DNA of 64,000 bases from an uncultured Clostridia bacterium (GCA_934120645.1 CAKOUO010000006.1:3637-67636), one strand, 5' to 3'. Positions 5,332-63,121 are shown, counted from the stretch's first letter. Translations and numbers: made by a program. Notes: generated from the sequence alone by a model not told the origin.

Positions 5332-5362
5332 TGTCCTTTTAGGGACGTTTCCCAAAAGGACA
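5332..5362 (+). repeat. REP-A copy 1 (31-nt palindromic element)
   Basis: TGTCCTTTTAGGGACGTTTCCCAAAAGGACA. Begins immediately after the priA TAA. Confidence 0.85.
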
Positions 5363-5381
5363 AAAGATAGGAGGAATAGAA

Positions 5382-5858
5382 GTGGCAATAAGAAATTTAA
5401 GATATGAAGGAGACGAAATTTTAAATAAAAAATCTAGAGAAATTGAAAAAATAGATGAAAAACTACAAACATTAATAGATGATATGATAGATACAATGCA
5501 TAAATACAATGGAGTTGGACTAGCAGCTGTGCAAGTAGGAATTTTAAAAAGAGTTTTTGTTGTAGATTTATATGACGATAAAGGACCAATAGTTTTTATA
5601 AATCCTGTTATTTTAAAAACTAAAGGAGAAAGAGAAGTAGAAGAAGGGTGTTTAAGTTTTCCAAATCAATTTGCTAAAGTTGTTAGACCAGAAGAAGTTA
5701 CAGCAGAATACACAGATAGAAATGGAAAGCGTATGAGAGTAAAAGCAAAAGAATTATTGGCACAGGCCATTTGCCATGAATATGATCATTTAGAAGGAGA
5801 AGTTTTTGTTGATAAGATTATTCCAGGTACAATGGAATATGTAGAACCAGAAAACTAA
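5382..5858 (+). CDS. def: peptide deformylase
   Basis: Motifs GVGLAAVQVG, EGCLSFP and HEYDHLEG. GTG start with AGGAGG SD. Confidence 0.9.
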   Translation: MAIRNLRYEGDEILNKKSREIEKIDEKLQTLIDDMIDTMHKYNGVGLAAVQVGILKRVFVVDLYDDKGPIVFINPVILKTKGEREVEEGCLSFPNQFAKVVRPEEVTAEYTDRNGKRMRVKAKELLAQAICHEYDHLEGEVFVDKIIPGTMEYVEPEN

Positions 5859-5860
5859 AA

Positions 5861-5891
5861 TGTCCTTTTGGGGACGTTTATTAAAAGGACA
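5861..5891 (+). repeat. REP-A copy 2
   Basis: TGTCCTTTTGGGGACGTTTATTAAAAGGACA, 2 nt after the def TAA. The right arm is partly degenerate. Confidence 0.8.
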
Positions 5892-5925
5892 TTTTAGTTA
5901 AAAGAATAGTTACTGAAAATAAAAA

Positions 5926-5956
5926 TGTCCCATTGGGAAACGTCCCCAAAAGGACA
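5926..5956 (-). repeat. REP-A copy 3 (inverted relative to copy 2)
   Basis: TGTCCCATTGGGAAACGTCCCCAAAAGGACA. The loop is the reverse complement of the consensus loop. Forms an inverted doublet with copy 2. Confidence 0.8.
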
Positions 5957-5972
5957 AAAGGAGAAGAGAAGA

Positions 5973-6929
5973 ATGTTAAATGTTTTGTTTATGGGAACTC
6001 CGGATTTTGCAGAAGAAAGCTTAGAGGCTGTGTATAACGCAGGACATAATATATTGGGTGTTGTAACAAATCCAGATAAACCGAAGGGAAGAGGCATGAA
6101 ATTGGTTGCATCACCGGTAAAAGAATTTGCAGTAGAAAAAGAATTAAAAATATATCAACCTCAAAAAGTAAAAAATAATCCAGAATTTATAGAGGAAATA
6201 AAAGAATTAAACCCTGATGTTATATGTGTTGTTGCGTATGGAAAGATATTGCCAAAGGAAATATTGGATATACCAAGATGTGGTTGTATAAATGTTCATG
6301 GTTCATTACTTCCAAAATATAGAGGTGCTGCACCGATACAATGGGCAGTTTTAAATGGAGATAGAGAGACTGGAATTACAACAATGTATATGAATGAGGG
6401 GATGGATACAGGTGATATAATTTTAAAACAGAAGGTCAATATTGGAGAAGATGAAACTACTGGAGAATTGTGGGATGAACTTTCTAAAATAGGAGGAGAA
6501 TTACTTGTAAAAACATTAGAACAAATTGAAAAAGGAAATGCACCAAGAGAAAAACAAGGGGAAGATTTTACAATGGCTCCAATGTTAAATAAAGAAATGG
6601 CTAAAATAGATTGGGAAAATAAGACAGCACAAGAAATAAAAAATTTGGTAAGAGGTTTAAATCCAATTATGGGAGCATACACCTTTTTAAATGGAAAAAA
6701 GATAAAATTTTGGAAAGTAGATATAGCAAAAGATATCAAAGTTGAAGAAGATAAAAAAATAAATAAAAATGGAACTGTTATAATCTCAGACCAAAAATGC
6801 GGACTATTTATAAAAACAAAAGAAGGAATTTTAAAGGTTTTAGAGATTCAAGGAGAAAATGCAAAAAGAATGAATATTGGAGATTTTTTAAGAGGAACAC
6901 AAATAAAAAAATTTGAAATATTTGAATAA
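5973..6929 (+). CDS. fmt: methionyl-tRNA formyltransferase
   Basis: MLNVLFMGTPDFA..., HGSLLPKYRGAAPIQ. Start set at ATG 5973 (SD AAAGGAG 5957-5963). The track start at 5925 only translates the REP copy. Confidence 0.9.
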   Translation: MLNVLFMGTPDFAEESLEAVYNAGHNILGVVTNPDKPKGRGMKLVASPVKEFAVEKELKIYQPQKVKNNPEFIEEIKELNPDVICVVAYGKILPKEILDIPRCGCINVHGSLLPKYRGAAPIQWAVLNGDRETGITTMYMNEGMDTGDIILKQKVNIGEDETTGELWDELSKIGGELLVKTLEQIEKGNAPREKQGEDFTMAPMLNKEMAKIDWENKTAQEIKNLVRGLNPIMGAYTFLNGKKIKFWKVDIAKDIKVEEDKKINKNGTVIISDQKCGLFIKTKEGILKVLEIQGENAKRMNIGDFLRGTQIKKFEIFE

Positions 6930-6982
6930 CATTTTTTTATAAAAAAATAGCGTAAAAAAGGTTGTAAAAAATACTAAAAATT

Positions 6983-7017
6983 GATATACTTATAACATAA
7001 ATAAGTATATCTTTTTT
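6983..7017 (+). terminator. intrinsic terminator after fmt
   Basis: Stem GATATACTTAT/ATAAGTATATC, loop AACATAA, then TTTTTT. Confidence 0.6.
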
Positions 7018-7041
7018 ATTAACAAATAAGGAGGTAATATT

Positions 7042-7530
7042 ATGTCAGAAGAAAAAACAGAAAAAGAACAAGAAAAAAAAGAAAATAGCATAGAGAAAGT
7101 AGAAGAAAACAATCAAGAAAATGGTATTGAAATATCAACAGATGTTATTGCAGTAATATCTGGAGTAGCTGTATCAGAAGTACAAGGAGTTGCTGGAATG
7201 GCAGGAGGATTTGCAGGAGGAATTTCTGAAGTATTTAGCGGAAAGAAAAATTTGGCAAAAGGAATAAAAGTAGAAAAAACAGAAGATTCAGCCAAAATAG
7301 ATGTAAACATTATAGTAGAATATGGCTCAAGAATACCAGATGTAGCTTTTGAAATACAAAATAGAGTAAAAAAAGCTGTAGAAAGTATGACAGGATTTAA
7401 AGTAGAAGAAGTAAATGTTCATGTGCAAGGTGTTAATACAGATATAGTAAAAAAATCAGATGAAAATAAACAAGAAGAAATAAAAACATCAGAAGAAAAC
7501 CAAGAACAAGAACAAAAATCAAATGAATAA
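7042..7530 (+). CDS. Asp23/Gls24 family envelope stress (alkaline shock) protein
   Basis: Core ISTDVIAVISGVAVSEVQGVAGM...KGIKVE...IDVNIIVEYG..IPDVAFEIQNRVKKAVE..TG. Acidic and basic tails. Confidence 0.85.
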   Translation: MSEEKTEKEQEKKENSIEKVEENNQENGIEISTDVIAVISGVAVSEVQGVAGMAGGFAGGISEVFSGKKNLAKGIKVEKTEDSAKIDVNIIVEYGSRIPDVAFEIQNRVKKAVESMTGFKVEEVNVHVQGVNTDIVKKSDENKQEEIKTSEENQEQEQKSNE

Positions 7531-7568
7531 AATAAAAAATACAAAAAAGAAAAAGTGAGGAAAAAGAA

Positions 7569-8114
7569 ATGAAAGTAATAGAAAAAATAACATTAATTAT
7601 ATACGCAAATATAATGTTAATATTATCAATAATAGCATGTTTATTAGTATTTGGATGGTTAGATATAGGAATTGTAGGAAGTTTAATAAAAACATTATTA
7701 GTTTCTGCAACATCATCAAAAATAATATTAGGAATAAGTATAGTATTTATATTATTATCTATAAGATGTATATTCTTTGATCCAACATCAAAACAAGAAC
7801 TAAAAGATAAAGAAGGAATACTTTTAGCAAATGATAATGGAAAATTAATGATATCAAAAGAAACAATAGAAAATATAGTTGAAACAGTAACAAAAGAATA
7901 TGGTGGTACAAAAGAAGTTTCATCTAGAGTAGAATTAGATAAAAACAATAATATAAACATAGATATTAATTTAGTAGTTAGTTCAGACGCAATTATAAAA
8001 AATCTATCAGTAGAACTACAAAATAAAATAAAACAAAAAATAAAACAAACAACAGACTTAGAAGTCAAAGAAGTAAATATAACAATAAAAAAAGCTATAC
8101 AAGAAAAAGCATAA
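7569..8114 (+). CDS. alkaline shock response membrane anchor protein AmaP-like
   Basis: N-terminal TM segments. Size and position directly after asp23 match the conserved asp23-amaP-DUF2273 arrangement. Confidence 0.55.
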   Translation: MKVIEKITLIIYANIMLILSIIACLLVFGWLDIGIVGSLIKTLLVSATSSKIILGISIVFILLSIRCIFFDPTSKQELKDKEGILLANDNGKLMISKETIENIVETVTKEYGGTKEVSSRVELDKNNNINIDINLVVSSDAIIKNLSVELQNKIKQKIKQTTDLEVKEVNITIKKAIQEKA

Positions 8115-8149
8115 AATATACACATATAGTATAGAAAGGAAACTATAAT

Positions 8150-8353: not shown

Positions 8354-8364
8354 AGGAATAAAAA

Positions 8365-16700: not shown

Positions 16701-17522
16701 TTATTTAAATTGTGAAGATGTATTAGAAGAAGGGTTTGACATATCATAAATATCTTCTACATTTTCATCTTTGTAAATTTGTTTATATAAATCATAAATA
16801 TTGTGAATTTTACCCATATTTCTAATAAAAGTTAAATTAGATATATTTTTTGTAGAAACTTTATTGTTTTTAACATTTTTAAAGTAAACCATGTTTTGTT
16901 CTTTGTCAAATAAAATATGATCATTAGGAGATTCTATTTCATTTGATGATGTAACAAAAATATAATTATCATTAATTTTATTATTATTTACAATTGGGCG
17001 TCTACCAAGTTCAATTCTATAGTCAGATTTACTATCATTTACATGTAAATACCAACTATTTGCAAAATCATTTATATCAACTTCAAAACTATAATGTAAA
17101 GTATCATTATAAACAATAAGAACAGGTTTTGTAGTTTCAAAGAAGTTTTCTCCATATTGTTTTTTATAATTTTCTCTATCTTTATCAGAAATTTCCCAAT
17201 AAATGAATAAAGTTGTAGGTGTTTGTGCTAAAACTTTTACAACTGTTTGATTATAACTATAAGGTAAATCATAATATTCATTAGTTATAAGAACTTTTTT
17301 CTTAGATGTTGATTTTGTAGTTGTTCTTTTTGTAGGAGATTTTTTTGTTGTTTTTGATACTTTTGTTTCAGATTTTGTAGTTGTACTCTTTTTTGCAGAA
17401 GCAGATTTAGTACTTGAGTTAGATTTTGACTTAGTTTTAGTTGTACTGCTTTTTATATTATCTACTTTTTTTGTTTTTAATTCTTTTTCTATTTCTTTAT
17501 TTTCTTTTGGTTTTCTTGGCAT
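16701..17522 (-). CDS. DUF4912 domain protein with Lys/Thr/Ser-rich N-terminus
   Basis: YDLPYSYNQTVVKVLAQTPTTLFIYWEISD motif. A common partner of GH57 genes. Confidence 0.6.
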   Translation of the reverse strand: MPRKPKENKEIEKELKTKKVDNIKSSTTKTKSKSNSSTKSASAKKSTTTKSETKVSKTTKKSPTKRTTTKSTSKKKVLITNEYYDLPYSYNQTVVKVLAQTPTTLFIYWEISDKDRENYKKQYGENFFETTKPVLIVYNDTLHYSFEVDINDFANSWYLHVNDSKSDYRIELGRRPIVNNNKINDNYIFVTSSNEIESPNDHILFDKEQNMVYFKNVKNNKVSTKNISNLTFIRNMGKIHNIYDLYKQIYKDENVEDIYDMSNPSSNTSSQFK

Positions 17523-17800
17523 TTTTTCCTCCTATGTATATCTCATTTTTCTTTTATATATACTATAATAAAATTGAAATAAATTCAAGTAAAATAAACA
17601 AAAAAAATAAAAGAATTTCAATAAAATTTTGGAAAATGACAAATTATTTTTCTTGATTTTTCAGTAAGACCATGATAATATAATGCCATGCAATAAATTT
17701 AATTAAACAACTTAGGAATTATAGATTAACAAGTACTAGAAACAACAAAACTTAGTAAAGAATATATAGAAAAAATAAAAAAAGAAAAGAAGGAATTTAC

Positions 17801-23225: not shown

Positions 23226-25190
<1,965 letters not shown>

Positions 25191-43102: not shown

Positions 43103-45826
43103 TTGGACAAATTAGTATTAATAGATGGTAATAGCATAATGAATAGAGCTTTTTATGGTATTATGGGAAGCAAAACATTAACAAGTAAAGATGGAAAGTA
43201 TACAAATGCTATTTATGGTTTTTTAGCTATATTATTTAAATTATTAGAAGAAGAAAAACCAGAATATATAGCAGTAACATTTGATTTAAAAGCTCCAACA
43301 GCAAGACATAAATTATATGATGGGTATAAAGCAACAAGAAAAGGAATGCCTCAAGAGTTAGCTGAACAAATGCCTATAATAAAAGATATTTTAAGAGCAA
43401 TGAATATAGATATAATAGAAAAAGAAGGCTATGAAGGTGATGATGTAATAGGAACATTATCAAGATTTGGAGAGAAAAAAGGATTAGAAGTAGTAATTCT
43501 TTCAGGAGATAGAGATACATTTCAATTAGCAACAGATAAGGTAAGAATAAATATACCAAGAACTAAGGCAGGAAAAACAGAAACAGAAATCTTTGATAGA
43601 GAAAAAGTAAAAGAAGTTTATGGAATAGAACCAAAACAATTAATAGAAGTAAAAGGATTACAAGGAGATACATCTGACAATATACCAGGAGTTCCAGGAA
43701 TAGGAGAAAAAACAGCATTATCTTTAATACAAAAATATGAAACAATAGATAATTTGTATAAAAAATTAGAAGCAGGAGAAGCAGATGTAAAAGGAAAACA
43801 AAAAGAAAAATTGGAAGAAAATAAAGATTTAGCTTATCTTTCAAGAACATTGGGAGAGATAAATGTAAATGTTCCAATAGAAGATACTTTAGAACAATTA
43901 AAATTAGAAGAATGGGATAAACAAAAGGTATTAGAAATATTTAAGCAATTAAATTTTAAAAGATATATAGAAAGATTTAATTTGTTAGATGAAAATACCC
44001 AAGAACAATCAGAAAATAAAGATTTAGATAAACTATATAAAATAGAAAACAAATCAATAGAAGACATTAAAAAAATTATAAAAGAAAACAAAGAAATAAC
44101 ATTTTATATTAATACAGAAAAAGAAGAAAATGATGAAAAAATCATAAAAGAAAAAATAACAGGAATAGGAATTTTTAATAATAAACTAAAAGAAGCATAT
44201 TACTATGAATTCAAAGAAGAAAAAGATGTTCAAGAATTAAAAGAAATATTTGAATCAGAAGAAATATCAAAAATTGGAATAGATTTAAGTAAAGTATATA
44301 TATTATTAAAACAACAAAATATTCAAATAAAACAAATAAAATATGATGTATCAATAGCTGCATATATATTAAATCCAAATGATAATAAATTAACAATAAA
44401 TAGTTTAGCAGACAAATATCTAGAAATAGATGTAAGCGAATTATTAGAAGATAATAATAAACAAGAGCAAATAAATTTATTTGATACATTAAATAAAGAA
44501 GTTAATATAAAAGAAAATGAAAGTATAGCCAAAAAAACAACTTTATATGCTTGGATAATTTCTCAATTAAAAGAAATAACAACAAAAAAATTAGAAGAAA
44601 TAAATGCAATTTCATTATTTAATAATATAGATATGCCAACAGTAACAGTACTTGCAGATATGCAATGGAATGGAATGTATGCAGATGAAGAAGAACTTAA
44701 TAAATTTGGAAACAAATTAAAAGAACAATTAGAAATAAAAACAAAAATTATATATGAAATGGCAGGAGAAGAATTTAATATAAATTCAACAAAACAGCTT
44801 GGAGAAATTCTTTTTGAAAAAATGAAATTACCAGTTATAAAGAAAACAAAGAGCGGATATTCAACAGATGTAGATGTATTAGAAAAATTAAAATCCGAAG
44901 ATCCAATAATTCAAGAAATATTGGATTATAGACAATTAATGAAATTAAATTCAACATATGTTGAAGGATTAAAACCATATATAAACCCAAAAACAAAAAG
45001 AATACATTCATTTTTCCATCAAACAATAACTGCAACAGGCAGAATTAGTTCAACAGAACCAAACTTGCAAAACATCCCAACAAGATTTGAACTAGGTAAA
45101 CAAGTAAGAAAAATATTTAAACCAGAACAAGGAAAAATCTATATAGATGCAGACTATTCACAAATAGAACTAAGAGTATTAGCACATATGTCAGAAGATA
45201 AGCATATGATACAAGCATTTAAAGAAGGTCAAGACATACATAAACAAGCTGCATCAAAAGTATTTAAAACACCAATTGATGAAGTAACAAAAGAACAAAG
45301 AAGTAACGCAAAAGCAGTAAACTTTGGAATAGTATATGGAATTAGTGACTTTGGACTAGGAGAACAATTAGGAATATCAAGAAAAATAGCCAAAAAATAT
45401 ATAGAAGAATATTTACAAGAATATGAAGGCATAAAACAATTTATGGATAAAACAAAAGAAAAAGCAAAAGAAACAGGTTATGTAGAAACATTATTTAACA
45501 GAAGAAGATATATTCCAGAATTAAAATCAAACAATTATATGGTAAGACAATTTGGAGAAAGAGCAGCCATGAATACTCCTATACAAGGAACTGCTGCTGA
45601 TATAATGAAAATAGCAATGATAAATGTATATAATAAATTAATAGAAAAAGGATTAAAATCCAAAATAGTATTACAAGTCCATGATGAAATGATGATAGAA
45701 GCACCAATTGAAGAAGCAGAAGAAGTTAAAAAAATAGTAAAACAATCAATGGAAGAAGCGGTAACACTAAAAATTCCATTAATAGCAGAAGTATCAGAAG
45801 CAGAAAACTGGTATGAGTGCAAATGA
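43103..45826 (+). CDS. polA: DNA polymerase I
   Basis: 5' nuclease domain (LIDGNSIMNRAFY), SDNIPGVPGIGEKTA, DYSQIELRVLAH, QVHDE, C-terminal ENWYECK. TTG start with AGGAGG SD. Confidence 0.95.
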   Translation: MDKLVLIDGNSIMNRAFYGIMGSKTLTSKDGKYTNAIYGFLAILFKLLEEEKPEYIAVTFDLKAPTARHKLYDGYKATRKGMPQELAEQMPIIKDILRAMNIDIIEKEGYEGDDVIGTLSRFGEKKGLEVVILSGDRDTFQLATDKVRINIPRTKAGKTETEIFDREKVKEVYGIEPKQLIEVKGLQGDTSDNIPGVPGIGEKTALSLIQKYETIDNLYKKLEAGEADVKGKQKEKLEENKDLAYLSRTLGEINVNVPIEDTLEQLKLEEWDKQKVLEIFKQLNFKRYIERFNLLDENTQEQSENKDLDKLYKIENKSIEDIKKIIKENKEITFYINTEKEENDEKIIKEKITGIGIFNNKLKEAYYYEFKEEKDVQELKEIFESEEISKIGIDLSKVYILLKQQNIQIKQIKYDVSIAAYILNPNDNKLTINSLADKYLEIDVSELLEDNNKQEQINLFDTLNKEVNIKENESIAKKTTLYAWIISQLKEITTKKLEEINAISLFNNIDMPTVTVLADMQWNGMYADEEELNKFGNKLKEQLEIKTKIIYEMAGEEFNINSTKQLGEILFEKMKLPVIKKTKSGYSTDVDVLEKLKSEDPIIQEILDYRQLMKLNSTYVEGLKPYINPKTKRIHSFFHQTITATGRISSTEPNLQNIPTRFELGKQVRKIFKPEQGKIYIDADYSQIELRVLAHMSEDKHMIQAFKEGQDIHKQAASKVFKTPIDEVTKEQRSNAKAVNFGIVYGISDFGLGEQLGISRKIAKKYIEEYLQEYEGIKQFMDKTKEKAKETGYVETLFNRRRYIPELKSNNYMVRQFGERAAMNTPIQGTAADIMKIAMINVYNKLIEKGLKSKIVLQVHDEMMIEAPIEEAEEVKKIVKQSMEEAVTLKIPLIAEVSEAENWYECK

Positions 45827-45854
45827 CCTTTTGGGGACGTTTCCCAAATGGACA
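45824..45854 (+). repeat. REP-A copy 4
   Basis: TGACCTTTTGGGGACGTTTCCCAAATGGACA. Its first three bases are the polA TGA stop. Confidence 0.85.
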
Positions 45855-53356: not shown

Positions 53357-55252
53357 ATGATAGAAAAGATAAATTCACCAGAGGATTTAAAAAAATTAAA
53401 TATAGATGAAAAAAATGAATTAGCTAAAGAAATAAGAAAATATATATTAGAAATAGTTTCAGAAAATGGAGGGCACTTAGCATCTAATCTAGGAGTAGTA
53501 GAACTTACAATTGCTTTACATAGTGTATTTAACATGCCAGAAGATAAAATTGTTTGGGATGTAGGACATCAAACTTATGTGCATAAAATTATAACAGGAA
53601 GAAGAAAAGAATTAGTAACACTAAGAAAATTAGATGGAATAGCAGGCTTTCCAAAATCAAATGAATCTGAATATGACAGTTTTAATACAGGACATAGTAG
53701 TACATCAATATCAGCAGCATTAGGAATGGCAAGAGCAAGAGATTTAAAAGAGGAAAAACATAATGTAATAGCTGTAATAGGAGATGGAGCATTAACAGGA
53801 GGAATGGCATTAGAAGCATTAAATGATGCAGGATTTAGTAAAACAAATATTACAGTAATATTAAATGATAATGAAATGAGTATTTCTAAAAATATAGGTG
53901 GACTAAATATGTTCTTAAGTAAATTAAGAACAAAAAAATTGTATACAAAATCAAATGTATCAATGAAAAAAATAATAAATGAAATACCTATTATAGGAAA
54001 ACCATTTGTAAAGGTAGTACAAAGAGTTAAAAGAAGTATTAAACAATTAATTATACCAAAAATGTTTTTTGAAGACATAGGATTTACATATCTTGGACCA
54101 GTAGATGGGCATAATATAGAACAATTACAAAATATAATGCAATTAAGCAAACAAGTTGAAGGACCAGTATTAATACATGTCTTAACTAAAAAAGGAAAAG
54201 GATATAAAATAGCAGAAGACAGTCCAGATAAATTTCATGCAACAGCACCATTTGATATAGAAACAGGAAAAACAAAAAAAGAAAAAAAAGCAGATTACTC
54301 AAAAATATTTGGAGAAAAATTAGTACAGCTTGCAAAAAACAATAAAAAAATAGTTGCAATAACAGCATCAATGAAAGATGGAACAGGACTTAGTAAATTC
54401 CAAAAAGAATTTCCAAATAGATTTTTTGATGTAGGAATAGCAGAACAACATAGTTTAACAATGGCAGCAGGAATGGCAAAAGAAGGAATGATACCAGTAG
54501 TTCCTATATACTCATCATTTTATCAAAGAGCATATGACCAAGTAATACATGATATAGCAATGCAAGACTTACCAGTAGTAATGTGTGTAGACAGAGCAGG
54601 AGTTGTAGGAGCAGACGGAGAAACACATCAAGGAACATTAGATATGGCATTCTTTAGAATAATACCAAACTTAACAATAATGGCACCAAAAGACTTTAAA
54701 GAATTAGAAGACATGTTAGAATTTGCAATCAATTTAAAAAAGCCAGTAGTAATTAGATACCCAAGAGGAGGAGAAGAAAACAACATAAAATTTGAAAAAC
54801 ATAGCAAAATAGAATTAGGAAAATCAGAAAAACTAAAAGAAGGAAAAGACATAAGTATAATAGCAATAGGAAAAAGAGTATCAAAAGCAATAGAAATAGC
54901 AAAAAGCTATAAAGACAAAGGAATAGACGCAGAAATAATAAATGCAAGATTTTTAAAACCACTAGATAAAGAAACAATAAAAAAATCAATAGAAAAAACA
55001 AAAAATATAATAACACTTGAAGATGGAACAGAAATAAACGGATTAGGAACAGCAATAGAAGAATTAATAGTAGAAGAAAATTTACAAAAAATAAAATTTA
55101 AAAAATATGCATGGCCAGACGAATTTATAAAACACGGAAGTGTAGAAGAACTAGAAAAAATTTACAAAGTATGTCCTTTTGGGGACGTTTCCCAAATGGA
55201 CAAAAATTTCATTTTTGAATCAAATATTGAAAAAGGAGATAATAATGGATAA
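53357..55252 (+). CDS. dxs: 1-deoxy-D-xylulose-5-phosphate synthase (C-terminus altered by a REP insertion)
   Basis: GGHLASNLGVVELTIALH, GDGALTGGMALEALN, IAEQH. The last 27 codons (from 55172) are encoded by REP-A copy 5 plus spacer. Confidence 0.9.
   Translation: MIEKINSPEDLKKLNIDEKNELAKEIRKYILEIVSENGGHLASNLGVVELTIALHSVFNMPEDKIVWDVGHQTYVHKIITGRRKELVTLRKLDGIAGFPKSNESEYDSFNTGHSSTSISAALGMARARDLKEEKHNVIAVIGDGALTGGMALEALNDAGFSKTNITVILNDNEMSISKNIGGLNMFLSKLRTKKLYTKSNVSMKKIINEIPIIGKPFVKVVQRVKRSIKQLIIPKMFFEDIGFTYLGPVDGHNIEQLQNIMQLSKQVEGPVLIHVLTKKGKGYKIAEDSPDKFHATAPFDIETGKTKKEKKADYSKIFGEKLVQLAKNNKKIVAITASMKDGTGLSKFQKEFPNRFFDVGIAEQHSLTMAAGMAKEGMIPVVPIYSSFYQRAYDQVIHDIAMQDLPVVMCVDRAGVVGADGETHQGTLDMAFFRIIPNLTIMAPKDFKELEDMLEFAINLKKPVVIRYPRGGEENNIKFEKHSKIELGKSEKLKEGKDISIIAIGKRVSKAIEIAKSYKDKGIDAEIINARFLKPLDKETIKKSIEKTKNIITLEDGTEINGLGTAIEELIVEENLQKIKFKKYAWPDEFIKHGSVEELEKIYKVCPFGDVSQMDKNFIFESNIEKGDNNG
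55172..55202 (+). repeat. REP-A copy 5 (inside the dxs reading frame)
   Basis: TGTCCTTTTGGGGACGTTTCCCAAATGGACA, identical to copy 7. Confidence 0.85.
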
Positions 55253-56437: not shown

Positions 56438-58366
56438 ATGTACGTTAAAAGTAGTAATAAGAATGGAATTACTTTAATAGCTTTGGTTATAACGATTATA
56501 ATATTGTTAATTTTGGCGGGAATAACAATAGCAACATTAGGAGGAGAAAATGGATTATTAGCCAAAGTAAAAAAAGCAAAAGAAGCAGAAATAAAAGCAG
56601 AAATGAGAGAAGAATTAACATTAGCATTGCATGATTTGCAAATAGAAAAAAGAGCAGAAGCAACATTAGATGATGTAACACAAGATTGGATAAATGAGCA
56701 AATAAAGAAATATGAATGCACAGTAAAAGATGATGCATCACTAAGTGGAAAACAAGTAATAATGAAAAAAGACAAAATTATAGGAAAGTTTTTAATAGAT
56801 GGAAACTTAAATATAGTCGAAGAAGAATATAATGAAAGTAGTATAGAATTCTCATATGAAACAAGAGAAAGAGAAGGCAATAAAATAAATATAGCAATAA
56901 TAATAAAAGATGAAATAAATGGAATAAAAGAAGTACAAATGCCAGATGGAACAATATATCCATATAACAAAAAGGAACAAGTAGGAATAGATTATTTAGT
57001 AGAATTAGGAGTAGAATACAAAGTTAAGATAACATCAGAAAGTGGAGAAATAGTAGAAAAGACAATAAAAATAGATGACTATTATTATAAAATAACAAAG
57101 AACTTAGGAGATGGAATTAAGATAGACAATACAGCAATAAAATTAGCATGGAATAAACCATATCAAGCAACAATAACAGCAGAAGGAGATTATATAATAG
57201 ATACAATAGCAGTAACAATGGGAGGACAAGCAGTAACAGTAGATAAAACAACAGGAGTAATAAATATAGATAAAGTAACAGATGATATAGAAATAACAGC
57301 AACAGCAAAGAAATTAGAAATAAAATATACAGTAATAGCAGTAAATACACTTCCAAGTGATACTACATCATTGGAAGCAAATACACAACCAAAAGGAAGA
57401 ACATTATATATAAATATAATAGCAAACTTGGAAGGAACAAAGTGTAATGTAATTAATAAAGATGATAAGAAATCAGTACCATATGCAATAACGAAAAACG
57501 GAAAATATATATTTATAGTTACGGGAACATATAATGGAAAAACAATAACAGAAGAAAAAGAAGTGCTAGTCAATCAATATCAATCAGCACCAGATTTAGT
57601 AAAATATGATGCTGGGGAATGGACTAAAGAAGAGATAGAAGAATTACAAAATAAAAAATTATACGATATAAATATAAGCAAAACAGTAAATGATAAATAT
57701 AAACTAAAAGATAATACAGGATTAAATTTTACATTCGGAGGATTTACATACAAAGGTGATATAACAAATCAAACATTAGTAGATTCAGGAAAAATAATAA
57801 CAAGTAGAAATCAAAGTGTGAGTCCACAAGATGGATATGGAACACCCAAATATAATGGGTGGCAGATATTAGAAAAGCAAGAAAAAAATGGAAAAATATA
57901 TGTAGAAAAATTAATACATGCGGGGATATCAGAAAATTATGTGCATTATCACATAGAAAAGTATGATGGATATAGATCAGAGTATTTATTAACAAATAGA
58001 GCGAGAAGTACAGAATATAGCACATTAAGTGATGGAACAGTAATAAATTCAAGAAATTGGGATATGTATAAGGATAAAAATCAAATTAGTTTAATAAAAG
58101 ATGTTCATTGCATTACAGGTGAGGAAGCTTATAAATTATGTGAAGAAAACAATAAAATTAGATTAAACGGAGTATATTATTGGACAGGAAATACTTGGGG
58201 AAGTGGTTATTATAACGATTTGATATTTATAGATATTTGGGGTAGATACCAAGGAACTAGTGGTTTTTGTTGGGGTATTCGTCCAGTGGTAACAATGAAT
58301 GAAGGAGTATACATAGCAAGTGGAGATGGAACAGAGGAAAATCCGTATATATTAGCAAAAGAATAA
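56438..58366 (+). CDS. large surface protein with prepilin-type N-terminus lacking Glu5 (paralog P3)
   Basis: MYVKSSNKNG|ITLIALVITIIILLILAGI. Coiled-coil region and Ig-like modules. C-terminal YYWTGN...FCWGIRPVVTM motif as in P1. Confidence 0.65.
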   Translation: MYVKSSNKNGITLIALVITIIILLILAGITIATLGGENGLLAKVKKAKEAEIKAEMREELTLALHDLQIEKRAEATLDDVTQDWINEQIKKYECTVKDDASLSGKQVIMKKDKIIGKFLIDGNLNIVEEEYNESSIEFSYETREREGNKINIAIIIKDEINGIKEVQMPDGTIYPYNKKEQVGIDYLVELGVEYKVKITSESGEIVEKTIKIDDYYYKITKNLGDGIKIDNTAIKLAWNKPYQATITAEGDYIIDTIAVTMGGQAVTVDKTTGVINIDKVTDDIEITATAKKLEIKYTVIAVNTLPSDTTSLEANTQPKGRTLYINIIANLEGTKCNVINKDDKKSVPYAITKNGKYIFIVTGTYNGKTITEEKEVLVNQYQSAPDLVKYDAGEWTKEEIEELQNKKLYDINISKTVNDKYKLKDNTGLNFTFGGFTYKGDITNQTLVDSGKIITSRNQSVSPQDGYGTPKYNGWQILEKQEKNGKIYVEKLIHAGISENYVHYHIEKYDGYRSEYLLTNRARSTEYSTLSDGTVINSRNWDMYKDKNQISLIKDVHCITGEEAYKLCEENNKIRLNGVYYWTGNTWGSGYYNDLIFIDIWGRYQGTSGFCWGIRPVVTMNEGVYIASGDGTEENPYILAKE

Positions 58367-58382: not shown

Positions 58383-58413
58383 TGTCCTTTTGGGAAGCGT
58401 CCCCAAAAGGACA
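58383..58413 (-). repeat. REP-A copy 6
   Basis: TGTCCTTTTGGGAAGCGTCCCCAAAAGGACA (minus orientation). Lies 2 nt downstream of the minus-strand rimI stop. Confidence 0.85.
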
Positions 58414-58415
58414 TT

Positions 58416-58853
58416 TTATATTTTTTTACTCATTATAATAGCATTACTATTACCATAATAATTTTTTCTAACACCTAATTTTACAAAATCAAACTTATTA
58501 TATAAATTAATAGCAGAAATATTATTCTCATTAACTTCTAATGTAATGCTTTTTAAATTTAGAGATTTTGATAAAGAAATTAAATTTTCTAAAAGAACAG
58601 AGCCAATACCGTTTTTTCTAAAATTTTTTTTAACAACAATATTCATAATATCAGCTTCATCAATAATAATCTTAAAACCAGCAAAACCAACAATTTCATT
58701 ATTAGAATTTTTGGCAACTAAAAAATATGAAGAAGCACATTCCAATTCTTCTTTTAAAATATTATAATTCCAAAAGTCATCAAAATTAGAAAGTAAAATA
58801 TCTTTAATACTATTTAAATCATCCAAAGACATCTCATTAACTTTTAAATCCAT
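58416..58853 (-). CDS. rimI: ribosomal-protein-alanine N-acetyltransferase
   Basis: GNAT motif VKKNFRKNGIGSVLL. tsaE-tsaB-rimI context. ATG 58853 is preferred (GGTGA SD). The track's GTG is at 58865. Confidence 0.85.
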   Translation of the reverse strand: MDLKVNEMSLDDLNSIKDILLSNFDDFWNYNILKEELECASSYFLVAKNSNNEIVGFAGFKIIIDEADIMNIVVKKNFRKNGIGSVLLENLISLSKSLNLKSITLEVNENNISAINLYNKFDFVKLGVRKNYYGNSNAIIMSKKI

Positions 58854-60231: not shown

Positions 60232-61239
60232 ATGTTTAAATTTGGATTTGGACAAGATATAGGAATAGATTTAGGTACAGCAACAGTAATTGTATATGTT
60301 AAAGGAAAAGGTATTGTATTAAGAGAACCATCAGTTGTAGCAGTTGACAATAACTCTGGAGATGTACTAGCAGTTGGAGGAGAAGCAAGAAGAATGCTTG
60401 GAAGAACTCCAGGAAATATAATAGCAACAAGACCACTAAGAGAAGGAGTTATATCAGACTATACAGTTACAGAAAAAATGTTAAAATATTTTATCGGCAA
60501 AGTATGTGAAAAATCACTATTCGCACCAAGAATTATGATATGTATACCTTCACAAGTAACAGAAGTAGAGAAAAAAGCTGTAATAGATGCAGCAGTAGCA
60601 GCAGGAGCAAGAAAAGTCTATTTAATAGAAGAACCAATAGCAGCAGCAATAGGTGCAGGAATAGATATAGCAAAACCATGTGGAAATATGGTAGTAGATA
60701 TCGGAGGAGGAACATCAGATATAGCTGTAATTTCATTAGGAGGATCAGTTGTAAGTTCTTCTATAAAAGTAGCAGGAGATAAATTTGATGAATATATAGT
60801 AAAATATATAAAAAAGAAGCATAATGTAGCAATCGGAGAAAGAACAGCAGAAGATTTAAAAGTAAATATAGGATGTGTATATCCAAAAATTCAAGATGCA
60901 GAAATGGATATAAGAGGAAGAGATTTATCAACTGGATTACCAAAAACAGTTACAATTCACTCAAGCGAAATGTTAGAAGCATTAATAGAACCAGCAATGA
61001 TGATTGTAGATGCAGTACATGGAGTATTAGAAAGAACACCACCAGAATTAGCAGCAGATATTAGTGATAAAGGAATTTATATGACAGGTGGAGGTTGTTT
61101 AATAGATGGATTAGATAAACTTTTACAAGAAAAAACAGGAATTAATGTTATGATAGCTCAAGACTCTGTATCATGTGTAGCATTAGGAACAGGAAAAGCA
61201 CTAGATAATTTAGATGTATTAGAAGGAAAGTCAAAATAG
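60232..61239 (+). CDS. mreB: rod shape-determining protein MreB
   Basis: GIDLGTATVIVYVKGKGIVLREPSVVA, VVDIGGGTSD. Confidence 0.95.
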   Translation: MFKFGFGQDIGIDLGTATVIVYVKGKGIVLREPSVVAVDNNSGDVLAVGGEARRMLGRTPGNIIATRPLREGVISDYTVTEKMLKYFIGKVCEKSLFAPRIMICIPSQVTEVEKKAVIDAAVAAGARKVYLIEEPIAAAIGAGIDIAKPCGNMVVDIGGGTSDIAVISLGGSVVSSSIKVAGDKFDEYIVKYIKKKHNVAIGERTAEDLKVNIGCVYPKIQDAEMDIRGRDLSTGLPKTVTIHSSEMLEALIEPAMMIVDAVHGVLERTPPELAADISDKGIYMTGGGCLIDGLDKLLQEKTGINVMIAQDSVSCVALGTGKALDNLDVLEGKSK

Positions 61240-61247
61240 ATATTAAC

Positions 61248-61290
61248 AAAAATAGAATTGCAAATTGCAGAATTTAGCAATTCTATTTTT
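61248..61290 (+). terminator. intrinsic terminator after mreB
   Basis: Perfect 13-14 bp stem AAAAATAGAATTGC/GCAATTCTATTTTT. Confidence 0.7.
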
Positions 61291-61313
61291 AGATAAAAGG
61301 AGAAAAATATACA

Positions 61314-62628
61314 ATGAGTAAAGTAGTAAAATTTATAACACTTGGCTGTAAAGTAAATCAATATGAAACAAACGCAATGGCACAAAAATTCTTAGAAAAA
61401 GGATATGAAATAATAGAAGAAGAAACAAAAAAAAATGAAAATAAAATTCCAGATATTTGTATAATAAATACATGCACAGTAACAAATATGTCAGACAGAA
61501 AATCAAGACAAATGTTAAGAAGAGTAAAAGAAAATAATGAGAAAACTATAGTAGTAGCTTGCCGGATGTTATGCACAAGTGGCTAAAGAAGAATTAAATA
61601 AAATACCAGAAATAGATTTAGTATTAGGAAATAATGAAAAAGTAGATATTGTAAAACATGTAGAAGAATATATAAAAAATAACACTCAAAATATTGAAAT
61701 AGAAGATGTAATGCAATCAAGAGAATTTTCAGACTTTGGAGATATAACATTTACAGAAAAAACAAGAGCAGTTATAAAAATACAAGATGGATGTGATAGA
61801 TTTTGCTCATATTGCATTATTCCATATGCAAGAGGAAGAGTTAGAAGTAGAAAACCAGAAAGCATTATATCTGAAGTACAAAAAATTTCAGAAGAAGGAA
61901 TAAAAGAAGTAGTTATAACAGGCATTCATATAGCATCATATGGAAAAGATTTTAAAAACAATTACAATTTAATTGACTTATTAGAGGAAATAAACAAAAT
62001 TGAAGGAATAGAAAGAATCAGATTAGGTTCAATAGAACCATTATTAATAACAGAAGAATTTGTAGAAAGATTAAAAAAATTAGAAAAAATATGCCATCAC
62101 TTCCATTTATCTTTACAAAGTGGATGTGATGAAACATTAAAAAGAATGAATAGAAGATATACAACACAGCAATTTAAGGAAATAACAGAAAGACTAAGAA
62201 AAACATATAATGATGTTAATTTAACAACAGATATAATAGTAGGTTTTCCAGGAGAAACAGAAAATGAATTCAATAAAACATACGAATTTTTAAAAGAAAT
62301 TAAATTTTATAAAATGCATATATTTAAATATTCACAAAGAAAAGGAACAAAAGCAGCTATAATGGAAAACCAAATACCAGGAGACATCAAAGAAAAAAGA
62401 AGCAAGAAGCTTATAGAATTATCTAACAAGAATGAGATTGAATATAACAAAGAATACATAGGAAAAGAAGTAGAAGTATTATTTGAAGAAGAAAAAGATG
62501 GAGTATATAAAGGACATACAGCAAATTATATGTTAATCCAATGTAAAACAAATGAAAATTTAGAAAATAAAATAAAAAAAGTAAAATGTGTAAAAGCAGA
62601 TATTGATCATATAGAAGCAGAAATATAA
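61314..62628 (+). pseudogene. mtaB: tRNA t6A37 methylthiotransferase MtaB (radical SAM, MiaB-like) interrupted by a +1 frameshift
   Basis: ORFs 61314..61586 and 61579..62628 are collinear halves. Removing one C from TGCCGGATG (61560-61568) restores ...VVACGCYAQVAKEEL... CDRFCSYCIIPYARG radical-SAM motif. TRAM-like C-terminus. Confidence 0.8.
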
Positions 62629-62702
62629 ATTAAAATGTAAATATGTAACAAAAATGTAATAAATATGTAATAAAAACTTAACACAAAAAAAATTTAAAAA
62701 GC

Positions 62703-62731
62703 TTGATTAATAAAAAATTATATAGTATAAA
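62703..62731 (+). promoter_or_regulatory. putative sigma-A promoter
   Basis: TTGATT (62703-62708), 17-nt spacer, TATAAA (62726-62731). Confidence 0.4.
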
Positions 62732-62769
62732 TAAAATAGCTGAAATAAAATACAAAGGAGGAAATAATA

Positions 62770-63090
62770 ATGTCAGAATTAGATCAAAATAATACACCAA
62801 ATGTATTTGGAGGAGTTTCATTTGAAAATACTGAAATAGAAGCAGAAGGAATGCCAGAAAATGCAGGAACAATAAGAAATACAGCATTACCTACAAAAGT
62901 AGGATTTTGGCAAAAATTTAAAGCATTTTGGTTACAAGAAATAGATTGGAACAAGGAAATAAAAGTTGTATTAACACCAAAGCAACAAAAAGTAGAAGAT
63001 GAAATAAATGAATTTTTACATCAAGAAATAACTTGGGAAAAAGTACATGACTTTTTATTCCAAGAAGTTACATTTGGAAAAAATAAATAA
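62770..63090 (+). CDS. hypothetical protein
   Basis: Strong SD (AAAGGAGG). 106 aa, rich in Trp and acidic residues, no recognised motif. Confidence 0.35.
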   Translation: MSELDQNNTPNVFGGVSFENTEIEAEGMPENAGTIRNTALPTKVGFWQKFKAFWLQEIDWNKEIKVVLTPKQQKVEDEINEFLHQEITWEKVHDFLFQEVTFGKNK

Positions 63091-63121
63091 TGTCCTTTTG
63101 GGGACGTTTCCCAAATGGACA
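63091..63121 (+). repeat. REP-A copy 7
   Basis: TGTCCTTTTGGGGACGTTTCCCAAATGGACA. Begins immediately after a TAA stop and lies 168 nt upstream of the RAYT-like gene. Confidence 0.85.

What the first reader, a model, noticed from the sequence alone, without database searches (positions are those of the whole stretch)
5332..63121. Dispersed 31-nt GC-rich palindromic element family (REP-A, 7 copies) locked onto gene 3' ends
The consensus is TGTCCTTTTGGGGACGTTTCCCAAAAGGACA. It forms a 12-bp stem (TGTCCTTTTGGG/CCCAAAAGGACA) around an asymmetric 7-nt loop (GACGTTT), and the loop gives each copy an orientation.

Copies lie at 5332(+), 5861(+), 5926(-), 45824(+), 55172(+), 58383(-) and 63091(+). Each differs from the consensus by 1-3 substitutions. 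The copies at 55172 and 63091 are identical.

The element stands out as a GC island in very AT-rich DNA. Six of the seven copies lie 0-2 nt downstream of, or on, the stop codon of a gene transcribed in the same orientation as the element: priA, def, polA, dxs, ORF 62770 and minus-strand rimI. In these six copies the element is preceded by an A.

Only about half of the copies are followed by a T-run. The loop sequence is conserved, which ordinary intrinsic terminators do not need. These properties fit a REP/REPIN-type mobile or domesticated hairpin. They also fit a sequence-specific 3' RNA element such as an mRNA stabiliser or a protein or RNase binding site.

REP systems have mainly been characterised in Proteobacteria. 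A stop-codon-abutting family in a low-GC spore former would be worth describing.
Basis: partly seen in the sequence, partly recalled or inferred. Interest (0 to 1): 0.7.

Follow-up and report, generated by a model that had tools for sequence, protein, structure and literature searches.

The report
REP-like hairpins with their tyrosine transposase
The seven GC-rich hairpins are real and form a REP-type repeat family in an uncultured low-GC gut Clostridia bacterium, and the missing piece is a RAYT-like tyrosine (HUH) transposase gene at the right edge of the window, flanked by two inverted copies of the hairpin.

Summary
All seven 31-nt copies are at the stated coordinates (0 expected by chance). 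An eighth copy lies just past the window end.

It is bracketed by copy 63091(+) and the eighth copy(-), which is the REPtron/TIRtron layout. Its best family hit is the REP-associated tyrosine transposase model, and its best fold match is E. coli RAYT bound to a REP hairpin. It sits at the same chromosomal site in seven species (53-100% identity), so it appears vertically inherited rather than IS-like.

Orthologous sites in relatives lack the hairpin at priA-def, polA and rimI, and carry ordinary terminators or nothing. One strain has an 87-nt deletion that starts exactly at an element terminus. Across 259 kb from relatives, 35 of 41 GGGACG sites sit in hairpin loops with at least six unrelated stem sequences.

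The stop-codon adjacency is statistically real: 5 of 7 copies lie within -3 to +2 nt (P about 3.5e-8). It remains mechanistically unexplained.

Verdict: a new member of the known REP/RAYT-TIRYT kind, in Clostridia. Interest is moderate.

The parts
5332..5362 (+). Element copy 1. It starts 0 nt after the priA stop (TAA) and ends 19 nt before the def GTG start, so it fills the priA-def spacer.
   Evidence: The orthologous junction in L022 is TAA|GGAGTAAAAAAGATG with no element.
5861..5891 (+). Element copy 2, 2 nt after the def stop. It is the left arm of an inverted doublet. Its palindrome extends to AACTAAAA/TTTTAGTT.
   Evidence: I1, I19. L022 has an ordinary terminator here. L024 has a single variant copy 8 nt after the stop.
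5892..5925 (.). 34-nt spacer of the def-fmt doublet, giving a REPIN/MITE-like unit 5861-5956. The spacer resembles the inner flank of the rimI copy.
   Evidence: flank similarity z 3.6, matched by 2 of 300 shuffles.
5926..5956 (-). Element copy 3, the right inverted arm of the doublet. Its outer terminus abuts the fmt ribosome-binding site (AAAGGAG).
45824..45854 (+). Element copy 4. Its first three bases (TGA, from TGT) are the polA stop codon. A T-run follows.
   Evidence: In L032 and L033 the native stop (TAG/TAA) occupies the same triplet and no element is present.
55172..55202 (+). Element copy 5, translated as part of a 26-codon tail of dxs (ORF 53357-55252). It is identical to copy 63091.
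   Evidence: A decayed orthologous copy is present and read through in L015.
58383..58413 (-). Element copy 6, 2 nt after the stop of the rimI-like gene (-) and 16 nt after the stop of the convergent 642-aa gene. It is terminator-like in both directions.
   Evidence: L015 and L018 have unrelated ordinary terminator hairpins here. Strain L010 has an 87-nt deletion starting exactly at this element's outer terminus.
63091..63121 (+). Element copy 7, 0 nt after the stop of ORF 62770-63090. It is the left flank of the Y1 transposase gene.
63188..63238 (+). Terminator-like hairpin (GTATAGCA...TGCTATAC followed by a T7 run) between the left element and the Y1 start. Its sequence is conserved in every relative examined.
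63290..64000 (+). Y1 (HUH) tyrosine transposase gene of RAYT/TIRYT type. The first 237 of 255 codons are in the window, which cuts the gene. The HUH motif is NHIHIV and the catalytic Tyr lies in RYIHKNP. The right-hand inverted element lies 47 nt after its stop, outside the window (L009:11336-11366).
23229..23257 (+). Related second hairpin family (TTGTCAAAGGGGACGGGGATTTTTGACAA), left arm of an inverted doublet between grpE and dnaK. It shares the GGGGACG loop motif.
   Evidence: (I2).
23280..23308 (-). Right arm of the grpE-dnaK doublet (second family).

Best explanation
The 31-nt elements are a REP-type family of hairpin repeats belonging to a domesticated Y1 (HUH) tyrosine transposase of the RAYT/TIRYT kind. 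The gene sits at 63290 and runs off the window end, bracketed by two inverted copies.

Shown here: the gene, its flanking copies, its conserved chromosomal position, and the gain or loss of copies between species.

Inferred by analogy with E. coli TnpA-REP and IS608 TnpA: the enzyme binds the hairpin extruded in single-stranded DNA. It probably reads the conserved foot (TGTCC/GGACA) and the conserved loop motif (G)GGGACG(T/G). It then cuts and rejoins at the outer (5') terminus, spreading single copies or inverted doublets.

Copies persist where they do little harm: between a stop codon and the next ribosome-binding site, or at gene ends. At gene ends, copies that happen to be followed by a T-run can serve as intrinsic terminators. 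The tight abutment to stop codons is real. It is probably a mix of insertion next to A-rich TAA/AAA sequence and selection in very short spacers. That part is not demonstrated.
For: 1. REPtron layout. ORF106 stop | E(+) | 168 nt | Y1 gene | 47 nt | E(-) | radA ribosome-binding site, a unit of 1045 bp.

2. Y1 identity.
- Pfam Y1_Tnp, E 5e-15.
- NCBIfam REP-associated tyrosine transposase at 70-72 bits, against IS200 at 21-23 bits. All 35 aligned homologues prefer the REP model.
- The AlphaFold model (pLDDT 86.7) best matches 4ER8, E. coli RAYT bound to a REP hairpin (E 7.6e-8, TM 0.76). IS608 and ISDra2 rank below it.

3. Vertical inheritance. The same gene order (rimI-tsaB-tsaE | mreB | radical-SAM | small ORF | Y1 | radA | disA | PPIase) holds in seven species with Y1 identity 53-100%. 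Where it was measured, in three relatives, Y1 divergence ranks as the neighbouring genes do.

4. Each species' Y1 is flanked by that species' own element variant, and where dispersed copies were found (three of these species) they carry the same variant. The feet are TGTCCTTTT in the window, TGTCGCAT in L034 (with compensated stem changes), TGTCCCATT in L035, and TGTCCAAT in L026/L024, which were not shown to be one species.

5. Gain and loss.
- No element at priA-def in L022 and L024.
- No element at polA in L032 and L033.
- No element at rimI in L015 and L018, where ordinary terminators stand.
- At def-fmt: a doublet in the window, a single copy in L024, none in L022.

6. Breakage at the terminus. 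An 87-nt deletion in strain L010 starts exactly at an element end.

7. Hairpin with a recognised loop. 35 of 41 GGGACG sites in 259 kb lie in loops of stems of at least 7 bp, with at least six unrelated stem sequences. Non-overlapping control permutations give about 9%.

8. Subfamily structure. The AAAT variant is shared by 45824, 55172 and 63091. Element boundaries are sharp.
Against: - No activity was shown. Mobilisation by this Y1 rests on association and analogy.
- The NCBIfam score is below the curated cut-off (70-72 against 80 bits).
- The canonical REP tag GTAG at the hairpin foot is absent.
- Substitutions concentrate in the 3' arm (9 against 3), and the Y1-flanking copy in L018 barely folds (-2.9 kcal/mol). 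Sequence recognition of the 5' half may therefore matter more than the hairpin itself.
- Only 8 copies in about 83 kb were seen. The whole-genome census failed because the genome is not in the searchable collections.
- Single-copy status of Y1 could not be verified genome-wide.
- The L010 deletion comes from one metagenome scaffold.
- Stop-codon abutment is not explained by any known property of RAYTs.
Confidence: 0.8

Rival explanations
1. The hairpins are selected RNA-level or translation-level signals placed at stop codons. Candidates are 3' mRNA stabilisers, RNase or protein binding sites, or stop-proximal hairpins that stall terminating ribosomes, as reported for some E. coli REPs close to stop codons (Liang, Rudd and Deutscher, Mol Cell 2015; cited from my own knowledge, not read here). 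On this view function, not transposition, explains their positions.
For: - Five of seven copies lie within -3 to +2 nt of a co-oriented stop (P 3.5e-8).
- The same holds in other species: dnaB in L004 at +1 and cdsA in L007 at +2, and a TAG stop in L035 at 0.
- RNA hairpins are stable, -14 to -24 kcal/mol.
- U-runs follow the copies at def, polA and rimI but not the operon-internal copies at priA and dxs.
- A 2026 preprint describes E. coli REPs as local 3'UTR regulators.
Against: - It does not explain the transposase gene flanked by inverted copies.
- It does not explain the inverted partners that abut ribosome-binding sites in the antisense orientation (5926-, L009:11336-, L008, L006).
- It does not explain copies translated inside genes (dxs; polA in L032).
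- It does not explain the species-specific variants that match each Y1's flanks.
- Distances of +5, +8 and +17 nt also occur.
- It is best seen as a possible secondary role, not an alternative origin.
Confidence: 0.12
2. The Y1 unit is an autonomous IS200/IS605-type insertion sequence that is still selfish and mobile. The short copies would be its MITE-like derivatives, not a domesticated RAYT system.
For: - The Y1_Tnp domain is present.
- Many homologues lie on contigs of about 1 kb that end inside the flanking hairpins. This could be read as a multi-copy element.
- Bertels et al. 2017 describe RAYT Group 1, which also occurs in Clostridia, as the RAYT group that (with Group 6, later placed within IS200) most resembles an IS.
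Against: - The same chromosomal site is occupied in seven species, and in the three measured, divergence tracks the neighbouring genes.
- The IS200 model scores only 21-23 bits against a cut-off of 55.
- The ends are inverted copies of one hairpin, unlike the distinct left and right ends of IS200/IS605.
- The 1-kb contigs are explained by assembly-graph breaks at two inverted identical repeats.
Confidence: 0.05
3. They are ordinary, vertically inherited intrinsic terminators that happen to look alike.
For: They are GC-rich hairpins at gene 3' ends. Four of seven are followed by T-runs. The 58383 copy scores as a bidirectional terminator.
Against: - Near-identical 31-mers stand at unrelated loci, with 0 expected by chance.
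- Three copies lack a T-run, one is translated, and one lies 19 nt from the next start codon.
- Relatives have different, ordinary terminators or nothing at the same sites.
- The loop motif is conserved across unrelated stems.
Confidence: 0.02

Closest known systems
REP/REPIN-RAYT systems (REPtrons) of Gammaproteobacteria: E. coli TnpA-REP/YafM and Pseudomonas RAYTs (Nunvar 2010 PMC2817692; Bertels and Rainey 2011 PMC3116915; Messing 2012 PMC3479197, PDB 4ER8)
   Same: - Short dispersed imperfect palindromes lie mostly just downstream of genes.
- Inverted doublets occur.
- A Y1 HUH transposase gene is flanked by inverted copies.
- The gene stays at one conserved chromosomal site and diverges with the host.
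- The best fold match is 4ER8 and the best NCBIfam hit is the REP-associated tyrosine transposase model.
   Different: - No GTAG tetranucleotide at the hairpin foot.
- The conserved motif (G)GGGACG sits in the loop and upper stem.
- The protein is 255 aa, with a helical C-terminal extension of about 110 aa.
- Its score is below the NCBIfam equivalog cut-off.
- The host is a low-GC gut Clostridia lineage.
- Copies abut stop codons much more tightly.
TIRtron/TIRYT (Di Nocera et al. 2013, PMC3733652) and TnpA-REP subclass 2.1 (Quentin et al. 2018, PMC6006769)
   Same: - A RAYT-like gene is flanked by inverted repeats that are not GTAG REPs.
- The repeats carry a GGGG-led motif (published consensus GGGGWSAS; here GGGGACGT or GGGGACGG).
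- Some published TIRs are self-complementary and form moderately abundant families arranged as dimers.
- The proteins are longer than classical RAYTs, with a C-terminal helix-turn-helix-like extension.
   Different: - The motif matches GGGGWSAS at only 6-7 of 8 positions.
- The C-terminal helix-turn-helix is supported only by weak Pfam hits.
- Subclass membership was not tested by phylogeny.
- Neither Firmicutes nor Clostridia is mentioned in the text of Di Nocera et al. (term search).
- Quentin et al. found no REP-like sequences next to subclass 2.1 genes, whereas here the flanks are hairpins that are also dispersed.
IS200/IS605 insertion sequences (IS608, ISDra2)
   Same: The catalytic domain has the same HUH/Y1 fold. 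Hairpin ends are presumably recognised in single-stranded DNA. A terminator-like hairpin upstream of the transposase gene recalls the one described at the left end of IS200 (from my own knowledge).
   Different: - The gene occupies a single syntenic site rather than many.
- The two ends are inverted copies of one hairpin.
- The IS200 model score is weak.
- No tnpB gene is present.
Rickettsia palindromic elements (RPE) and intragenic REPs
   Same: Some copies are translated in frame: the dxs tail here, and three tandem copies of a sister family inside polA in relative L032.
   Different: Most copies here are extragenic. The elements are much shorter than RPEs. A dedicated transposase gene is present.

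Membership tests
REP/RAYT (REPtron) system | Short (20-40 nt) imperfect palindrome present in many dispersed, mostly extragenic copies | tested here: inconclusive
   Eight copies in about 83 kb of this species, with 0 expected by chance. The whole-genome count could not be obtained because the source genome is absent from the searchable collections.
REP/RAYT (REPtron) system | Y1 HUH transposase gene flanked by inverted copies of the same repeat | tested here: met
   E(+) at 63091 and E(-) at L009:11336 bracket the Y1 gene. The same layout is seen in L018, L026, L034 and L035. In L015 the left copy is degenerate.
REP/RAYT (REPtron) system | Transposase belongs to the RAYT clade rather than to IS200 | tested here: inconclusive
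   NF047646 scores 70-72 bits, below its 80-bit cut-off but far above IS200 at 21-23 bits. All 35 homologues agree. The top fold match is 4ER8. No phylogeny with reference RAYTs was made.
REP/RAYT (REPtron) system | Conserved GTAG tetranucleotide at the 5' foot of the hairpin | tested here: not met
   The element starts with TGTCC and contains no GTAG or CTAC. Flanks carry no conserved bases beyond A/T richness.
REP/RAYT (REPtron) system | Single-copy, vertically inherited transposase gene | tested here: inconclusive
   The syntenic position is conserved in seven species and, in the three measured, divergence tracks the neighbouring genes. Copy number per genome could not be tested.
REP/RAYT (REPtron) system | REPIN-type inverted doublets as the predominant form | tested here: inconclusive
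   One doublet (5861/5926, 34-nt spacer), the pair around Y1, and four single copies in the window. Doublets of this or sister families occur in L034, L035, L032 and at window 23229-23308.
TIRtron/TIRYT, TnpA-REP subclass 2.1 | RAYT-like gene flanked by terminal inverted repeats unrelated to GTAG REPs | tested here: met
TIRtron/TIRYT, TnpA-REP subclass 2.1 | GGGGWSAS motif in the flanking repeats | tested here: inconclusive
   GGGGACGT matches 6 of 8 positions. GGGGACGG in sister families matches 7 of 8. The consensus is taken from PMC3733652.
TIRtron/TIRYT, TnpA-REP subclass 2.1 | Long protein with a C-terminal helix-turn-helix domain (Bac_DnaA_C, HTH_23 or HTH_28) | tested here: inconclusive
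   The protein is 255 aa with a confidently modelled helical C-terminal region. Only weak HTH hits were found: HTH_23 in 6 of 35 members (best E 0.027) and HTH_19 (E 0.05). No Bac_DnaA_C hit was found.
IS200/IS605 insertion sequence | Several near-identical copies at different sites, distinct left and right ends, IS200-type TnpA | tested here: not met
   IS200 model 21-23 bits against a cut-off of 55. One syntenic site across species. The ends are inverted copies of one hairpin.
Intrinsic (rho-independent) terminator | GC-rich hairpin directly followed by a U-run, with no need for sequence identity between sites | tested here: not met
   Only 4 of 7 copies have a T-run. One copy is translated and one lies 19 nt from the next start codon. 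Individual copies such as 58383 may still act as terminators.
MITE of a DDE transposon | Terminal inverted repeats with target-site duplications | tested here: not met
   No direct repeats flank the copies or the doublet.

The most novel reading that the evidence does not exclude
The family homes to translation stop codons or gene 3' ends by a mechanism of its own. For example, it might insert next to TAA/A-run sequence or into terminator hairpins exposed as single-stranded DNA. One RAYT-like enzyme would read a loop motif (GGGACG) shared by many hairpin families with unrelated stems. This would be a different recognition logic from the GTAG-foot recognition of classical REPs. It would make the elements modular gene-end cassettes that supply or replace terminators, and occasionally stop codons, in a low-GC Gram-positive lineage.
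Probability: 0.2. Interest if true: 0.65.

Novelty: new member of a known kind. Interest (0 to 1): 0.5.

Why it matters
REP/RAYT systems have been studied almost only in Proteobacteria. The long RAYT-like proteins with C-terminal extensions (TIRYT, subclass 2.1) have no clear DNA partner in the literature read here.

This locus gives a clean Gram-positive example with four features:
- the transposase gene, its flanking hairpins and the dispersed copies can all be seen together;
- each species has its own variant;
- several stem families share one loop motif;
- copies sit almost exactly on stop codons.

That makes two questions directly testable. What does this class of Y1 enzyme recognise? Are gene-end hairpins in such genomes recruited from mobile DNA? 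On the practical side, these repeats break metagenome assemblies and lengthen or truncate called ORFs (dxs, rimI, def).

Tried and rejected
- Genome-wide census. Exact-pattern scans of GTDB representative genomes, JGI metagenomes and IMG/VR with CCTTTTRGGGACGYTTCCCAA gave only 5, 3 and 0 stretches. Four of these were real copies in relatives (L004, L006-L008) and four were chance hits in high-GC DNA. The source genome is not in those collections, so no census was possible.
- Walking along the genome. This was limited by the rule that only window proteins can be looked up. It gave 10 kb to the left (no new copy) and 9 kb to the right (one new copy).
- Rfam. No family covers the elements or the Y1 leader.
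- Sequence search of the PDB with Y1 found nothing useful. The link to 4ER8 came only from fold comparison.
- Pfam on the C-terminal extension gave only weak helix-turn-helix hits.
It was repeated with P0001.
- The idea that contigs of about 1 kb carrying Y1 homologues prove multi-copy dispersal was rejected. Two inverted identical flanks alone can break an assembly graph.
- The idea that the element brings its own stop codon was rejected for priA and polA. The native stop sits at the same codon in relatives that lack the element. For def, where the stop position differs by up to one codon among relatives, the comparison is not conclusive.
- Target-site duplications were looked for and not found.
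- A literature search for a described REP/RAYT family in Clostridia found none.

Full report
**1. Observation**

Each has 1-3 substitutions, and none appeared in 100 dinucleotide-preserving shuffles. Copies 55172 and 63091 are identical.

The window is 23-30% GC, so the elements are GC islands. The consensus folds as single-stranded DNA at -12.4 kcal/mol (z -5.3). As RNA in context the copies fold at -14 to -24 kcal/mol.

A null model that places a 31-mer at random in non-coding DNA of the window gives p = 0.018 for landing -3 to +2 nt from a co-oriented stop codon. Five of seven copies do so, P = 3.5e-8. Information content drops to background immediately outside both ends of the 31-mer.

- dxs reads through its copy for 26 more codons.
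- The polA stop TGA is the first triplet of its copy.
- 5926(-) is the inverted partner of 5861(+) and abuts the fmt ribosome-binding site.

**2. The missing piece: a Y1 transposase**

I looked up contigs that encode the small ORF 62770-63090. This showed a 255-aa protein with a Pfam Y1_Tnp domain starting about 200 nt downstream, in six independent gut-metagenome assemblies. In the window this gene occupies 63290-64000 and is cut by the window end (237 codons, 99% identical).

It is bracketed by copy 63091(+) and an eighth, inverted copy 47 nt after its stop, which abuts the radA ribosome-binding site (L009:11336-11366). This is the REPtron/TIRtron arrangement.

Evidence on the protein:
- It has the HUH motif (NHIHIV) and a Tyr in RYIHKNP. 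Both are invariant in 35 homologues.
- In NCBIfam it scores 70-72 bits against the REP-associated tyrosine transposase model (cut-off 80) and 21-23 bits against IS200 (cut-off 55). All 35 homologues behave the same way.
- An AlphaFold model (mean pLDDT 86.7) best matches 4ER8, E. coli RAYT bound to a REP hairpin (E 7.6e-8, TM 0.76 over the target). IS608, ISDra2 and IS200 transposases follow.
- Residues from about 145 to 255 form a confidently modelled helical extension with only weak helix-turn-helix hits.

**3. Inheritance of the gene**

Homologues at 61, 58, 58, 56 and 53% identity sit in the same gene order: rimI-tsaB-tsaE | mreB | radical-SAM | small ORF | Y1 | radA | disA | PPIase. The loci are L015, L018, L035, L034 and L026.

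Y1 identity falls in the same order as that of the neighbours. For L015, L018 and L026 the figures are mreB 93/91/88, rimI 70/63/53 and Y1 61/58/53. This fits a vertically inherited gene at a fixed site, as described for RAYTs (Bertels et al. 2017). It does not fit an active insertion sequence.

A terminator-like hairpin (GTATAGCA...TGCTATAC followed by a T-run) between the left element and the Y1 start is conserved in sequence in all these species.

**4. The elements co-vary with the gene and come and go**

Each species' Y1 is flanked by its own variant of the element:

| Species (locus) | Variant flanking Y1 |
|---|---|
| Window species | TGTCCTTTTGGGGACGTTTCCCAAA(A/T)GGACA |
| L026 | TGTCCAAT(T)GGGGACGTTTC...TTGGACA |
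| L035 | TGTCCCATTGGGGACGTTTCTTTTGGGACA |
| L034 | TGTCGCATTGGGGACGTTTCTC..TGCGACA |

In L034 the foot changes are compensated on both arms.

Dispersed copies, where they were found in the same or a closely related genome, carry the same variant. Examples are a doublet in L034, a single copy directly after a TAG stop in L035, and the def-fmt copy in L024, which is identical to the right-hand copy flanking Y1 in L026 (whether L024 and L026 are one species was not established).

Orthologous sites differ between species:

| Site | Window species | Relatives |
|---|---|---|
| priA-def | TAA \| element \| AAAGATAGGAGG | L022: TAA \| GGAGTAAAAAAGATG, no element. L024: none |
| def-fmt | doublet | L024: one copy. 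L022: ordinary terminator |
| polA | TGA inside the element | L032 and L033: ...NWY(E/D)CK then TAG/TAA, no element |
| rimI 3' end | element | L015 and L018: unrelated terminator hairpins |
| dxs tail | intact copy, read through | L015: decayed copy, also read through, so this insertion is old |

Within the species, strain L010 has an 87-nt deletion whose endpoint is exactly the outer terminus of the rimI copy, so rimI then reads through the element. This is a single metagenome scaffold and should be treated with caution. It is nevertheless the footprint expected if DNA is cut at that terminus.

**5. A wider superfamily**

I searched 259 kb from twelve related loci for GGGACG alone. Of 41 sites, 35 (85%) lie in the loop of a hairpin with a stem of at least 7 bp. 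Control permutations that do not overlap the motif give about 9%.

The stems fall into at least six unrelated sequence families:

| 5' stem arm | Where seen |
|---|---|
| TGTCC... | window and relatives |
| TTGTCAAA | window 23229-23308, a doublet between grpE and dnaK |
| GGTGTTTTT | L032 |
| TTCAACCAAT | L035 |
| GGGGATTT | L035 |
| ATGATTTT | L018 |

Many are inverted doublets that fill operon-internal spacers such as groES-groEL and mreB-miaB.

A conserved loop with freely changing but complementary stems argues for a real hairpin whose loop is read by a protein. Two observations temper this. Within family A, substitutions concentrate in the 3' arm (9 against 3). The L018 flank copy barely folds. 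The 5' half, TGTCC...GGGGACGTTT, is therefore the most constrained part.

**6. Mechanism**

Shown:
- the repeat family;
- the transposase gene flanked by inverted copies;
- the conserved position of the gene;
- species-specific co-variation;
- gain and loss at orthologous sites;
- a deletion starting at a terminus.

Inferred by analogy with TnpA-REP and IS608 TnpA (Messing 2012; Ton-Hoang 2012, as cited within the papers read):
- the enzyme binds the hairpin in single-stranded DNA;
- it cuts and rejoins at the outer end;
- it spreads single or doublet units.

The flank of the rimI copy resembles the spacer of the def-fmt doublet (z 3.6). This hints that the mobile unit is the element-spacer-element doublet.

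Copies with a T-run (def, polA, rimI) look like usable terminators, and 58383 scores as one in both directions. Copies inside operons (priA-def, dxs-ylmH) are followed by A-runs instead.

**7. The stop-codon question**

The abutment is real and recurs in other species: dnaB +1, cdsA +2 and a TAG stop at 0. Distances of +5, +8 and +17 nt also occur.

The native stop is not supplied by the element at priA and polA.

In doublets and around Y1, the left copy abuts the upstream stop and the right copy abuts the downstream ribosome-binding site. Part of the pattern may therefore come from insertion into spacers that were only about 10-20 nt long, where no other position is tolerated. That cannot explain polA, which has a 165-nt spacer.

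The base 5' of the element is nearly always in an A-run (TAA, TAAA, TAAAA, AAA). Preference for such sequence plus selection is my working explanation, and it is unproven. A role of stop-proximal hairpins in translation or mRNA decay, as reported for E. coli REPs (my own knowledge; for a recent preprint on 3'UTR effects), cannot be excluded.

**8. Comparison with known systems**

The closest known kinds are REP/RAYT REPtrons and, more precisely, the TIRtron/TIRYT class of Di Nocera et al. 2013. That class consists of RAYT-like genes flanked by non-GTAG inverted repeats sharing GGGGWSAS. Some of those repeats are self-complementary and moderately repeated, and some are arranged as dimers. Quentin et al. 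2018 equate the class with TnpA-REP subclass 2.1: long proteins with a C-terminal helix-turn-helix and no REP found nearby. Bertels et al. 2017 note that RAYT Group 1 also occurs in Clostridia.

Membership of the classical GTAG-REP family fails on the GTAG tag. Membership of TIRYT/subclass 2.1 is plausible but not proven: the motif matches at 6-7 of 8 positions, the helix-turn-helix evidence is weak, and no phylogeny was made.

I found no description of such a family in Clostridia in the searchable literature.

**9. Verdict**

This is a new member of a known kind, with three features worth following up: loop-motif recognition across several stem families, the tight stop-codon placement, and a Gram-positive host. 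Interest is moderate, 0.5.

Noticed in passing
window 23229-23257 (+) and 23280-23308 (-): A second hairpin family (TTGTCAAAGGGGACGGGGATTTTTGACAA) forms an inverted doublet between grpE and dnaK. It shares the GGGGACG loop motif with the reported family but has an unrelated stem.
   Followed up: partly
L032:9475-9570, also L032:1000/1082 and L032:19391: In a relative (PolA 82% identical), a third family (GGTGTTTTTGGGGACGGACTCAAAAAACACC) occurs as three tandem copies translated in frame inside the polA 5'-nuclease gene, adding about 38 aa relative to the window's PolA. It also occurs as an inverted doublet before a ribosome-binding site and as a tandem pair after a gene.
   Followed up: partly
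L035:8088-8172 and 17497-17600; L018:2295, 3075, 3156: Further stem families with the same GGGACG loop occur in relatives (TTCAACCAAT..., GGGGATTT..., ATGATTTT...). Several are inverted doublets filling the mreB-miaB and groES-groEL spacers.
   Followed up: partly
L010:877-910 against L009:5614-5731 (window about 58383-58500): One strain has an 87-nt deletion starting exactly at the outer terminus of the rimI-side element. It removes the last codons of rimI, which then reads through the element (169 aa against 145 aa). It comes from a single metagenome scaffold.
   Followed up: yes
window 63188-63238: A terminator-like hairpin (GTATAGCA...TGCTATAC followed by T7) lies in the leader of the Y1 gene, followed by a G-rich stretch. 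Its sequence is conserved across species whose Y1 proteins are only 53-61% identical. It may insulate or regulate the transposase gene.
   Followed up: partly
L009:11379-12750 (just right of the window); L022-L025 priA; L032 polA: radA carries a +1 frameshift at an A6 run in the window species and is split in several relatives. priA is called in 3-4 overlapping pieces in two other species, each in two independent assemblies. polA is split by an in-frame TAA in L032, and many relatives have separate C-terminal polA ORFs of recurring lengths. This may reflect real gene splitting, slippage at poly(A) tracts, or assembly error.
   Followed up: no
window 53357-55252: The C-terminal 26 residues of dxs (CPFGDVSQMDKNFIFESNIEKGDNNG) are encoded by the element and the sequence after it, and the ORF overlaps the ylmH start. 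A decayed version of the same arrangement exists in L015.
   Followed up: partly
L028, L029: Many Y1 homologues lie on contigs of about 1.0 kb and many Def homologues on contigs of about 0.55-0.63 kb. The two Y1-bearing contigs inspected (L028, L029) end inside the flanking hairpins, and the lengths equal the element-to-element distances. These repeats systematically break metagenome assemblies.
   Followed up: partly
L005:268-330 (Steroidobacteraceae MAG, 71% GC): An inverted pair of TTGGGGACGTTTCCCAAT occurs in a high-GC gammaproteobacterium. It may be a related TIRYT-type repeat or a coincidence.
   Followed up: no
window 56438-58366: A 642-aa gene has only a weak, sub-threshold Pfam hit to the N-terminal methylation (pilin-like) motif. 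With a 69-aa ORF, it lies between ylmH and rimI in this species but is absent from L015. Its last codons overlap sequence that resembles the doublet spacer.
   Followed up: no
window 309-381: A tRNA gene is the only Rfam gathering-level hit in the window.
   Followed up: no
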